Assembly: GCF_963506605.1 (NCBI RefSeq)
Contig: NC_083278.1
Location: 68,882,001 to 68,946,000, forward strand
Length of the DNA: 64,000 bases
Reading direction: 5' to 3'
Source of the DNA: Zootoca vivipara
Lineage: Eukaryota
Positions 49,601-52,600 of this stretch are shown piece after piece. Position 1 is the stretch's first letter, and the number at the start of each line of letters is the position of its first letter. The position numbers were made by a program.

Positions 49601-52600
49601 GGGGATCCCTTTTCGAGCTAAGAGACACATTCCCTTTAGGCAATATTCTAAGGGCCTCGTGCTAGTGGTGGATATGACGAAAAGCAAAAGTGGACAGAGT
49701 TTGCCTTTGTATAGTAGGCCAGTTCCTATACAGCCCTCCCTATCTGCCATCCAGATTTGCAAGAGGCATCATCAGAGTTTAAGGACACATTCCAGTCAGG
49801 CAAAAGCACTTCTGGTGCCAGGTGGGGCCAATGAGAAGGGTATGAGCTGTAGATAGTTTTGAGGGCCAGATGGAGAGGCCTGGAAGGCCACATTCAGCTG
49901 CCAGACCTGAGGTTCTCCATTCCTGCAGCAGGAAGTGATGAGACCCTGGAGAGCCACTGCCAGTCTTAATGGGCAATATTAGGCTAGATGGGCAAATACC
50001 TGACCTGGTCTAAGGCAGCTTTTTATGTTGCTGTTGTAGTTGTATATATATTTATTTATACCCCACCCTTTTCCCTGGCAGAGGCTCACTGTGGCTCACA
50101 GATAATAATAACAGCTATGAACAAACATTTTAAAAATTAAACTTTGATGGAATTTGAAATTAAAAGAGAGTGTGTGTGTGTCCACACACACACAAAATCT
50201 ATTAAAACCATACAGATAATTAGAATAAAAACAGCACGGCACCAGCCCTCTCATTAAAAGCAGTCAGTTCTCAAAAGCCTCTTGGAACAAGAAAACCTTC
50301 ACCTGCCAGCAGAAGGACAACAAGGAGGGAGCCAGTCTGACTTCTCTAGGGAGTTCCAAAGTCTGGGAGCAGCCAATGAGAAGGCCCTTTCCCGTGTCCC
50401 TACCAAGCATGCCTGTGAGGGTAGCGGAAGCGAAAGAAGGCCTTCCTCAAAGATCTTAAATAATGGGCAGGTTCATATGAGGGAATGCGCTCCTTCAGAT
50501 AGCTTGGACCTAAACCATAGAGGGCTGTATAGGTCATAAGCAGCACTTTTAATTGTACCCGAAAACAGGCGCAGCTGGTACACTAGCTTTAACTGTGCAA
50601 GTGTACTCCAGGCCACCCTAGAGACCTAGACATACATGCTAGGGCTGAGTTGGGATTTGAACCCTAGTCTCCCAGGTCCTATTCTCACCACTACACCACA
50701 CTGGCTTTCATCAGTTTTACCGCCTCACCCCCCCATTAGTAGTGTTTATTAGTCCTGTGTAGATGTTCAGTGACATGATGCTATGTAAAATACTCCAGAA
50801 AGTCATGTCAGGGCATGCCCATTGAACTTCTGTCTCTTCCAAAAAAATTAAACTTTGAAAGTGTCTCCTTTTAATAAAATATGATAGGGAATCTGTCTCA
50901 TTTTTTTATTCCAAGTTGTGACACTACTAAACAAGGTGAACTTCTGACAATGCTTTGAATATTTATACCTATATTTCTTTTCTAACTTCCCTTAATTCTA
51001 CTATTGTGCTTGGTTTCAAGAGGGTAAGGAAGCAGAGACTTACTAGTTGATAAGAGAAGTGAGATATCATGAAAATCTGTCTTCAAAAATGTGAATTAGA
51101 GGTTGAGCATGATTAGTGTGTTGCTTACTTGGGAAAGAACATATCCATGACAAGTATTGCCATCAGCTGGGTGATAGAGCAATCGGTCAAGCTGACTTCA
51201 TGCACCTTACCGGAATCCAGCTTGCCAATAAAAGATTGCATAAGATCAGATTCCTATGAATAAGAGAGCTCATCAAATGTGATCATTGGGTTACAGTTTA
51301 AATACCCTGTCGGTTGATAGCGAAACAAATGAAGAAGCACTCAAGCATTTAGTAATGCCATCACCAGAAAGAGCTGCAGTCTGGACTCCCTGGAATCTGG
51401 TTGGGGATTGCTGAAATTCTTTGATTCCTTCTATACATTGGGCATGCTAAATAAATGCTCCTTTATAGCAGCAAATGACTCTGTTTGATGGCTGATTGTA
51501 AACAGCATATGAATTTTCTGTGACTAGTTTGGAATACTGGAATATGGAATATGGGACCCAGGTGGCGCTGTGGTTAAACCACTGAGCCTAGGGCTTGCTG
51601 ATCAGAAGGTCGGCGGTTCGAATCCCTGTGACGGGGTGAGCTCCCGTTGCTTGGTCCCAGCTCCTGCCAACCTAGCAGTTCGAAAGCACGTCAAAATGCA
51701 AGTAGATAAATAGGAACCGCTACAGCGGGAAGGTAAACGGCGTTTCCATGTGCTGCTCTGGTTTGCCAGAAGCGGCTTTGTCATGCTGGCCACATGACCT
51801 GGAAGCTATACGCCGGCTCCCTCGGCCAATAATGCGAGATGAGTGCACAGCCCCAGAGTCGGTCACGACTGGACCTAATGGTCAGGGGTTCCTTTACCTT
51901 TACCTTTATACATTGGGCATGCTAAATAAATGCTCCTTTATAGCAGCAAATGACTCTGTTTGATGGCTGATTGTAAACAGCATATGAATTTTCTGTGACT
52001 AGTTTGGAATACAGAATTCTTTTGCAATGAAACCCAAACATTGAAAGAACAAAAATAATATATGAAGGTATATTAGAGAACATGGAGCATGCTATTCTTT
52101 CTAGACTGATTTGCTCCTTAATGTGATTTAGATTATTAATTTTTCTCATTAGTTCCCAGTTAGGTGAAGGTACCCCTGACCATTAGGTCCAGTCGCGGAC
52201 AACTCTGGGGTTGCACACTCATCTTGCTCTATAGGCCGAGGGAGCCAGCTTCCGGGTCATGTGGCCAGCATGACTTAAGCCGCTTCTGGCGAACCAGAGC
52301 AGCGCACGGAAACGCCATTTACCTTCCCTCTGTAGCGGTTCCTATTTATCTACTTGCACTTTGACGTGCTTTTGAACTGCTAGGTGGGCAGGAGCTGGGA
52401 CCGAGCAATAGGAGCTCACCCCATCGCTGGGATCAGCAAGCCCTAGGCTCTGTGGTTTAGACCACAGCGCCCCCCCCCCGCATCCCTAGTTCCCAGTTAA
52501 GAATAAGTTTATCATTCAGTGGTTGATGGACTCGTGTATATTTCAGTTCTTTGATCAATTACTTGAGGGCTTAAATGAGCTGACCATCATCTATCTGTAG

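What the first reader, a model, noticed from the sequence alone, without database searches (positions are those of the whole stretch)
51432..52012. Sauria SINE with a perfect 106-bp target-site duplication and slippage repeats at the 5' junction
51432-51537 and 51907-52012 are identical over 106 bp, whereas other BovB and Sauria insertions here have 11-13-bp TSDs. Between the left copy and the SINE are 15 extra bases, TGGAATA-TGGAATA-T, which reiterate the end of the target (TGGAATAC). The SINE tail CCTTTA also resembles the target flank CCTTCTA. This looks like a recent TPRT event with a distant second nick, microhomology priming and repeated template slippage by a BovB-type RT, duplicating host DNA in the process.
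Basis: partly seen in the sequence, partly recalled or inferred. Interest (0 to 1): 0.7.

Follow-up and report, generated by a model that had tools for sequence, protein, structure and literature searches.

The report
Lizard SINE with 106-bp target duplication
A short mobile element in a lizard or snake genome copied 106 bases of host DNA when it inserted, about ten times the usual amount, which is a rare but already known kind of slip in this copy-and-paste mechanism.

Summary
51432-51537 and 51907-52012 are identical at 106 of 106 bases. Between them lie 15 bases that repeat the end of the left copy (TGGAATA x3.4) and a 356-bp SINE ending in (CCTTTA)3.

The best reading is one target-primed reverse transcription event with the second-strand break about 106 nt from the first. 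The new evidence is at the left edge of the repeat. It carries the published insertion signature of Sauria SINEs: the duplication starts with TA, with TTT 10-12 nt upstream. Only 0.6-1.3% of window positions show this. The right copy abuts the SINE tail with a 2-nt overlap.

Which enzyme made the TGGAATA filler, and what made the distant break, are inferred. The empty site and spanning reads could not be checked, because no vertebrate collection was on hand.

Duplications over 100 bp are documented for L1 in cultured cells. Fillers templated from flanking DNA are documented for fish LINEs. The two surveys of this SINE family searched only 10-49 bp, so such events were not looked for there.

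Verdict: a real, ordinary-mechanism outlier. It is a new member of a known kind, of modest interest.

The parts
51420..51431 (+). Upstream flank of the target. TTT lies at 51420-51422 (positions -12 to -10 from the first base of the duplication) and the flank ends in CCTTC. The first-strand nick is inferred opposite 51431|51432.
   Evidence: The signature is defined in PMC13295347 and PMC6007223.
51432..51537 (.). Left copy of the 106-bp duplicated target. It starts with TA and ends with TGGAATAC.
   Evidence: 106 of 106 identical to 51907-52012. (unique in the window). (no CpG, stops in all frames).
51538..51552 (+). 5' filler TGGAATA-TGGAATA-T, which repeats the last heptamer of the left copy. 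In an alternative parse only 51538-51545 is filler and the SINE head starts at 51546.
   Evidence: TGGAATA x3.4 at 51530-51554. (alignment of the two SINE heads in the window supports either parse).
51553..51908 (+). Sauria/Squam1-type SINE, full length as far as can be judged. It has an A-box-like TGGCGCTGTGG at 51563-51573 and a B-box-like GGTTCGAATCC at 51615-51625 (box consensus recalled). Its tail (CCTTTA)3 lies at 51891-51908, and the last 2 nt (TA) are shared with the right copy.
   Evidence: 91% and 87% to two other copies in the window. (tail). (published tail (ACCTTT)n).
51907..52012 (.). Right copy of the duplicated target. It is followed by the original downstream flank AGAATTC. 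The second-strand break is inferred at 52012|52013.
   Evidence: (this site does not carry the Tn-TA signature on the other strand).
52150..52499 (-). Older Sauria-type SINE (body 52163-52486) in the opposite orientation, tail to tail with the focal SINE. Its 13-bp duplications TAACTGGGAACTA lie at 52150-52162 and 52487-52499. It is context rather than part of the event, but it gives the in-window standard for a normal duplication and for the SINE head.
   Evidence: (the pair folds as a roughly 320-bp hairpin in single-stranded DNA, z = -45.6).

Best explanation
A Sauria/Squam1-type SINE RNA was inserted by the endonuclease and reverse transcriptase of a BovB (RTE-clade) LINE through target-primed reverse transcription.

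The enzyme nicked the bottom strand opposite 51431|51432 of the original locus. The freed 3' end (complement of TA...) paired with the UA at the end of the (CCUUUA)n tail and primed cDNA synthesis. The top strand was then broken about 106 nt downstream (at the present 52012|52013) instead of the usual 10-13 nt. Filling in the long stagger duplicated 104-106 bp of non-coding host DNA on both sides of the SINE.

At the 5' junction the two ends were joined after short, repeated copying of the end of the target. This left 15 (or 8) extra bases that repeat TGGAATA.

Shown: the exact repeat, its exact abutment to the SINE tail, the templated nature of the filler, and the endonuclease signature at the first nick. 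Inferred: the partner LINE, the source of the distant second break (a host nick or a search for pairing, since the site lacks the endonuclease signature), and the polymerase that made the filler.
For: 1. The repeat is 106 of 106 identical, unique in the window, and bounded exactly by the insertion.

2. The right copy begins inside the last unit of the (CCTTTA)3 tail, a 2-nt overlap. The left copy is separated from the SINE head only by filler copied from its own end (chance 3.7e-9).

3. The first base of the left copy is T followed by A, with TTT at -12 to -10. This is the 'Tn-TA' signature reported for Sauria SINEs in lizards (PMC13295347 sections 3.2-3.3; PMC6007223). In this window, 1220 of 127,920 positions on both strands (0.95%) fit my definition. 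The figure is 0.62% with a narrower span and 1.28% with a wider one.

4. Both new junctions (target end to filler to SINE head, and SINE tail to target start) exist only in a long-duplication structure. Mixing a filled allele with a normal 12-bp duplication and an empty allele would not create them (reasoning).

5. Both odd features have precedents. L1 duplications over 100 bp occur in up to 10% of HeLa events, and in 4 of 7, 21 of 23 and 22 of 28 events in repair-deficient lines (PMC5223499 passages). 5' extra nucleotides templated from flanking genomic or LINE DNA are reported for zebrafish LINEs (PMC4760211 section 5).

6. Zero differences in the CpG-free repeat fit the non-CpG private divergence of the SINE (2 of 289; P(0) = 0.23).
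Against: No empty site, no second individual and no reads could be examined, so the event is reconstructed from one assembly.

I fixed the span of the signature test after seeing the site.

The older neighbouring SINE, which has a clean 13-bp duplication, has TA but not the TTT. So 1 of the 2 copies with clean duplications in the window fits.

The second-break site does not carry the signature, so the element's own endonuclease is not shown to have made it.

The SINE has 7 private differences in 289 aligned columns against two other copies: 4 CpG decays, 2 others and 1 retained CpG. If all arose after insertion, 5.1 differences would be expected between the two 106-bp copies (P(0) = 0.006). 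That would make the duplication younger than the SINE.

A 106-bp duplication lies far outside the 7-15 bp reported for RTE-clade elements.

Family membership rests on the tail, the length and the copies in the window. No published consensus could be aligned.
Confidence: 0.78

Rival explanations
1. Secondary rearrangement of an ordinary insertion. The SINE first inserted at 51431|51432 with a normal duplication of about 12 bp. Later a replication error with two template switches copied the next 94 bp of downstream DNA, plus the TGGAATA filler, in front of the SINE head. The first switch was between the two short duplication copies and the second was back to the SINE head. The nearby inverted SINE may have promoted the error.
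For: The Tn-TA signature fits this reading equally well, because the first nick is the same. The SINE shows 4 private CpG decays and 2 other private changes while the repeat shows none, which fits a duplication younger than the SINE. The focal SINE and the older inverted copy can form a very stable hairpin in single-stranded DNA (-364 kcal/mol, z = -45.6), a context in which replication errors are expected (general knowledge, recalled). Iterated short templated copies are typical of such repair (recalled).
Against: It needs two precise switches, one of them landing exactly at the boundary of the SINE head. One insertion with a distant nick explains everything, and that outcome is documented for L1. 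The private differences of the SINE may simply be inherited from its source copy, since only two comparators were available.
Confidence: 0.08
2. Assembly artefact. The 106-bp copy on one side is not in the animal's genome. It arose from mis-joining the filled and empty alleles of a heterozygous SINE insertion, or from a chimeric path through a repeated SINE.
For: Perfect identity of the two copies is what a false duplication would give. Heterozygous insertions are a known cause of false duplications (recalled). No read data could be checked.
Against: There is no N or gap in the window. Neither a filled allele with a short duplication nor an empty allele contains both observed junctions, that is target end + TGGAATA filler + SINE head and SINE tail + target start. 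An assembler would have had to invent one of them. The filler and the 2-nt tail overlap look like biological junction features.
Confidence: 0.06
3. A pre-existing 106-bp tandem duplication, into whose junction the SINE later inserted.
For: Only the arrangement itself, in which two copies flank the SINE.
Against: The insertion would have had to hit the exact junction of the two copies, about 1 position in 212. It would also have had to make no duplication of its own: the 5' flank ends in ...GGAATAT and the 3' flank starts with TATACATT. The Tn-TA signature sits at the outer left edge of the repeat and not at the supposed insertion point.
Confidence: 0.02

Closest known systems
Ordinary Sauria (Squam1) SINE insertions mobilised by BovB/RTE-clade LINEs (Nishiyama and Ohshima 2018, PMC6007223; Nakatsuka and Ohshima 2026, PMC13295347; named sections and figure legends read)
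   Same: The tail is (ACCTTT)n. The duplication starts with T (TA) about 10 nt downstream of TTT. The element is about 350 bp and is interspersed in many copies.
   Different: Reported duplications are mostly no longer than 13 bp, and 7-15 bp for the RTE clade, against 106 bp here. Both surveys searched only for perfect repeats of 10-49 bp, so an event like this would have been missed or scored as a shorter repeat. The papers say targets rarely resemble the 3' repeat, whereas here CCTTC precedes the nick.
L1 insertions with target-site duplications over 100 bp in cultured human cells (Gilbert 2002 and 2005 and Symer 2002, as cited in Servant et al. 2017, PMC5223499; passages read). [quoted passage not shown]
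   Same: The outcome is the same: a normal 3' junction, a distant second-strand break and a long duplication of host DNA. The proposed cause is also the same, a distal nick unrelated to the element's endonuclease.
   Different: The LINE clade differs (L1 against RTE/BovB), and here the passenger is a SINE. Those events were seen in cell culture and in repair-deficient lines, whereas this one is germline and carried in a genome assembly. The original reports (PMC1190285) were not held.
5' extra nucleotides at LINE junctions, the 'annealing' pathway of zebrafish ZfL2 elements (Kajikawa 2012 as cited; Yamaguchi 2014, PMC4245944, passages; review PMC4760211 section 5; Suzuki 2009, PMC2666801, passages)
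   Same: Extra bases at the 5' junction are templated from the genomic DNA flanking the junction. Either a template jump by the reverse transcriptase or synthesis mediated by annealing is proposed.
   Different: Those elements belong to the L2 clade. The tandem reiteration seen here, three copies of one heptamer, is not described in the passages I read.

Membership tests
Sauria / Squam1 SINE | Tail of simple repeats (ACCTTT)n | tested here: met
   (CCTTTA) x3.0 lies at 51891-51908. The published tail is given.
Sauria / Squam1 SINE | tRNA-related head with polymerase III A and B boxes | tested here: inconclusive
   A-box-like TGGCGCTGTGG (51563-51573) and B-box-like GGTTCGAATCC (51615-51625) are seen. 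The box consensus is recalled. ARAGORN found 0 tRNAs, and Rfam found no tRNA match in 50000-54000. The family structure is described in PMC10702118.
Sauria / Squam1 SINE | 3' region derived from BovB LINE | not tested
   No BovB 3' consensus was on hand. The only hint is that 51866-51907 resembles another 3' end at window 33-73 (84% over 43 nt).
Sauria / Squam1 SINE | Alignment to the published family consensus | not testable with these tools
   The consensus tables are in PDF supplements that could not be read. A text search for three strings of the element found no paper that prints it. The resemblance to the consensus is recalled only.
Sauria / Squam1 SINE | Interspersed multi-copy element of about 350 bp | tested here: met
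   The element is 356 bp. There are two further long copies (91% and 87%), one internal fragment and one 3' end piece in the window. The length range is given.
Sauria / Squam1 SINE | Tn-TA insertion signature at the first base of the duplication | tested here: met
   TA is at positions 1-2 and TTT at -12 to -10. Between 0.62% and 1.28% of window positions fit.
[quoted passage not shown] | Direct repeats of the target abutting both ends of the element | tested here: met
   There is a 2-nt overlap with the tail on the 3' side, and only filler on the 5' side.
[quoted passage not shown] | Duplication length in the range specific to the clade (7-15 bp, mostly 10-12) | tested here: not met
   The duplication is 104-106 bp, against the range quoted. 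This is the anomaly.
[quoted passage not shown] | Empty orthologous site with one copy of the target | not testable with these tools
   No vertebrate genome or read collection was available. The bacterial and archaeal contigs gave 18 loci, none of them a SINE.
Large (over 100 bp) target-site duplication events, as described for L1 | Normal 3' junction plus a duplication over 100 bp | tested here: met
   The partner LINE differs, so this is the same kind of event and not the same family.

The most novel reading that the evidence does not exclude
Long duplications may be a regular, overlooked outcome of the BovB/Sauria machinery rather than a one-off. In this view the second-strand break is not placed by the endonuclease. 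It is placed wherever the 3' end of the cDNA finds pairing on the displaced top strand.

Two observations fit this. The target end TGGAATAC resembles the bases in front of the SINE head. The older copy's duplication also ends in a GGGA-like word next to its GGGATGC head. A neighbouring inverted SINE, which can pair with the nascent cDNA, may keep the top strand open and push the break outward.

Published surveys capped the search at 49 bp and would have missed this class. It would be a steady source of roughly 100-bp duplications of host DNA in squamate genomes.
Probability: 0.12. Interest if true: 0.5.

Novelty: new member of a known kind. Interest (0 to 1): 0.3.

Why it matters
This is a clean natural example showing that the second-strand step of LINE-mediated insertion can go far astray in the germline of a reptile, not only for L1 in cultured human cells. 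The first nick looks fully canonical and the second does not. That supports the view that the two breaks are made by different means.

It also points to a blind spot. The two genome-wide surveys of this SINE family searched only for repeats of 10-49 bp. A survey without an upper limit could measure how often such events duplicate host sequence.

The duplicated 106 bp here are non-coding, so no direct functional effect is expected at this locus.

Tried and rejected
- More SINE copies to fix the 5' end. One scan of genome contigs with an 18-nt core word gave 18 loci. In blastn with the focal SINE, 0 of the 18 were SINE copies and only one showed a 28-nt chance match.
- A full-text search for three strings of the element found 1 paper, which was unrelated.
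- Supplements. The zip of PMC13295347 holds only BovB alignments, BovB duplication lists, MEME page text and a script. Its PDFs, which hold the tables, had no reader, and 'Sauria' and 'SINE' occur 0 times. The distribution of duplication lengths in its supplementary figure S4 therefore stayed unseen and may bear on how rare long duplications are.
- PMC1190285 and PMC1716264 are not held.
- Rfam (2 weak unrelated matches, E = 0.19 and 0.88) and ARAGORN (0 genes) gave no tRNA call for the SINE head.
- BovB in the window. 0 of 14 long ORFs had a Pfam family. Of 202 stop-to-stop frames of at least 75 aa I took the 150 longest. I scanned 131 of these, and 14 had been scanned. Five were left out: four inside SINE copies, and 4020-4478. 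Of the 131, 5 had a family, including two RVT_1 fragments whose clade I did not determine. A 20-nt word from the Podarcis BovB 5' end had 0 matches at up to 3 mismatches.
- I tested whether the second break carries the Tn-TA signature on the other strand. It does not.
- I considered the filler as part of the SINE head. A global alignment with the only other head in the window prefers a start at 51546, which gives an 8-nt filler. An ungapped comparison favours 51553, which gives a 15-nt filler. This is unresolved.
The one coding exon I noticed was scanned on its own.

Full report
**What is there**

The window is 64,000 bases with no N and 41.8% G+C. Positions 51432-51537 and 51907-52012 are identical at 106 of 106 bases, and the match stops on both sides at once. 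If one 1-nt gap is allowed, it runs 4 nt further left, because the flank CCTTC resembles the CCTT of the SINE tail (110 of 111). The unit is found nowhere else in the window. It is 34.9% G+C, has no CpG and has stops in all six frames. Rfam finds nothing credible in 50000-54000.

Two things lie between the copies. The first is 15 bases, TGGAATATGGAATAT (51538-51552). The second is a 356-bp element (51553-51908) ending in (CCTTTA)3. Tandem Repeats Finder reports TGGAATA x3.4 at 51530-51554, so the first heptamer is the end of the left copy. It also reports (CCTTTA) x3.0 at 51891-51908, so the last TA of the tail is also the first TA of the right copy.

**What the element is**

The window holds several related pieces:
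- a copy at 15772-16097 (+, 91% identical, lacking the first 44 query positions, i.e. about 29 nt of the SINE head);
- a copy at 52163-52486 (-, 87%);
- an internal fragment at 45675-45819 (-);
- a related 3' end at 33-73.

The (ACCTTT)n tail is the one published for the Sauria SINE, also called Squam1 (PMC6007223 Table 2; PMC13295347 section 3.3). The length of about 350 bp fits the family description in PMC10702118 (passages). A-box-like and B-box-like words are visible at 51563-51573 and 51615-51625. However, the box consensus is recalled, and neither ARAGORN nor Rfam calls a tRNA.

I could not align a published consensus. The paper's tables are unreadable PDFs, and no held paper prints the sequence. 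Family membership is therefore well supported but not complete.

**The key test**

Two papers from one group report that Sauria SINE duplications start with T, and that three Ts lie about ten nucleotides upstream. They name this pattern Tn-TA and take it to mark the first-strand cleavage site of the BovB endonuclease.

The left edge of the 106-bp repeat fits. T and A are at positions 1 and 2, and TTT is at -12 to -10. Over both strands of the window, 1220 of 127,920 positions (0.95%) fit when TTT may start at -13 to -9. The count is 789 (0.62%) for -12 to -10 and 1632 (1.28%) for -14 to -8. I chose these spans after seeing the site, so the figure is indicative only.

The older inverted SINE has TA at the start of its 13-bp duplication but no TTT at the right distance. 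The inferred second break (52012|52013) does not carry the signature on the other strand.

The picture is therefore a canonical first nick, a canonical 3' junction with 2 nt of tail overlap, and a non-canonical, distant second break.

**The 5' junction**

The filler repeats the last heptamer of the target twice. Chance would give that with a probability of 3.7e-9, so it was copied from the target end.

Its exact length depends on where the SINE head starts. The only other head in the window, in the older copy, follows its duplication directly and reads GGGATGCGGGG.... An ungapped comparison puts the focal head at 51553 (GGGACCCAGG), which gives a 15-nt filler. A gapped global alignment prefers 51546 (GGAATATGGG), which gives an 8-nt filler and 6-7 nt of likeness between the target end and the SINE head. 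I could not settle this.

In either case the junction belongs to a described class. 5' extra nucleotides of zebrafish LINE inserts are templated from genomic or LINE DNA next to the junction. The proposed mechanisms are synthesis mediated by annealing, or a template jump by the reverse transcriptase (PMC4760211 section 5; PMC2666801 passages; PMC4245944 passages). Sequence alone cannot show which enzyme acted here.

**How unusual it is**

RTE-clade duplications are given as 7-15 bp, most often 10-12. Those of the animal elements analysed were mostly no longer than 13 bp. The older neighbour here has 13 bp.

Both surveys accepted only perfect repeats of 10-49 bp, so longer ones were not looked for. 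My searches found no report of a long duplication for this SINE or for BovB. That covers only the held library.

For L1, duplications over 100 bp are documented. They occur in up to 10% of events in HeLa cells, and in 4 of 7, 21 of 23 and 22 of 28 events in three excision-repair-deficient lines. The authors suggest a distal nick unrelated to the element (PMC5223499; also PMC2912911, and a preprint passage). The kind of event is therefore known. This is an instance in another LINE clade, with a SINE passenger, in a germline genome.

**Age**

I used the rate from PMC13295347, 0.0013 per site per Myr. The chance of no difference between the two copies is 0.50 at 2.5 Myr and 0.05 at 10.9 Myr.

In a three-way alignment the focal SINE has 7 private differences in 289 columns, against 15 and 21 for the other two copies. 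Four of the 7 are CpG decays, two are other changes and one is a CpG that only the focal copy retains. The non-CpG rate (2 of 289) predicts 1.5 differences between the repeat copies (P(0) = 0.23). All seven would predict 5.1 (P(0) = 0.006). With only two comparators, private changes may be inherited from the source copy. This is a weak point against the single-event reading, not a contradiction.

**Rival explanations**

- An artefact from mixing filled and empty alleles is unlikely. Neither allele of an ordinary insertion contains both observed junctions, and there is no gap nearby.
- A pre-existing tandem duplication would need a hit exactly at its junction, with no duplication made by the SINE itself.
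- The most serious rival is a later replication error that extended an ordinary 12-bp duplication. It shares the first-nick signature and would fit the age hint. The focal SINE also sits tail to tail with the older copy, 255 nt apart, and as single-stranded DNA the pair folds into a hairpin with a stem of about 320 bp (-364 kcal/mol, z = -45.6). However, this rival needs two precise template switches.

**Context**

A GC-rich island at 4.0-7.4 kb holds a frame with a STAR_dimer domain (E = 1.3e-15). Its translation begins at a methionine. It looks like the first coding exon of a Quaking-like gene on the + strand; the name is recalled. The SINE lies 45 kb downstream on the same strand and may be intronic, which is an inference. 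I scanned this exon alone and built no spliced model.

By its repeats the window is squamate, not human.

**What could not be done**

No vertebrate genome, read set or second individual was available. The empty-site test, the read test and a genome-wide survey of duplication lengths remain the decisive steps.

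Noticed in passing
window 4000-7400, especially 6467-6712 (+): A GC-rich island (65% G+C at 4001-6000) contains a frame with Pfam STAR_dimer (E = 1.3e-15). It reads from a methionine at about 6566. It looks like the first coding exon of a Quaking-like STAR-family gene (name recalled). The focal SINE would then lie in a downstream intron.
   Followed up: partly
window 51553-52486: The focal SINE (+) and the older SINE (-) form a tail-to-tail inverted repeat with a 255-nt spacer. 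As single-stranded DNA it folds to -364 kcal/mol (z = -45.6). This is a possible source of local instability and a possible influence on the distant second break.
   Followed up: partly
window 15700-16140: The SINE copy at 15772-16097 lacks the first 44 query positions (about 29 nt of the SINE head). It is preceded by GATCAGGGGTCAG, which resembles the SINE's own 3' region. A 13-nt word, ATTCACTATAGAT, also occurs twice upstream, 38 nt apart. No clean duplication was found. It may be another irregular 5' junction.
   Followed up: partly
window 18110-18400 (+) and 42819-43064 (+): These are reverse-transcriptase fragments (RVT_1, E = 1.8e-14 and 3.3e-4, the second below Pfam's cut-off). The first lies in a repeat that also occurs at 56633-57755 and 21219-21608. 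The LINE clade was not determined.
   Followed up: no
window 1-73: This is the 3' end of another element cut by the window edge. It ends in GGGGTCCTTTACCTTACCTTT and is 84% like the focal SINE's 3' end over 43 nt. It is either a second Sauria-type subfamily or a BovB 3' end.
   Followed up: no
window 44244-44673, 63385-63542, 39836-42170: There are GC-rich tandem arrays with a 220-nt unit x2.0 and a 51-nt unit x3.1. There is also a cluster of units of about 90-140 nt repeated many times between 39.8 and 42.2 kb, with further copies at 30.4 and 35.7 kb. None was identified.
   Followed up: no
window 33267-33402, 37110-37245, 56506-56631, 60260-60411: A family of elements of about 135-150 nt, each a near-palindrome that matches its own reverse complement at 83-86%. 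This is the look of a miniature inverted-repeat transposon. It was not identified.
   Followed up: no
loci L002-L004, L006, L011, L013, L014: The 18-nt SINE core word occurs several times per contig in two Lysobacterales MAGs, although these loci are not SINE copies. It is presumably part of a bacterial repeat.
   Followed up: no
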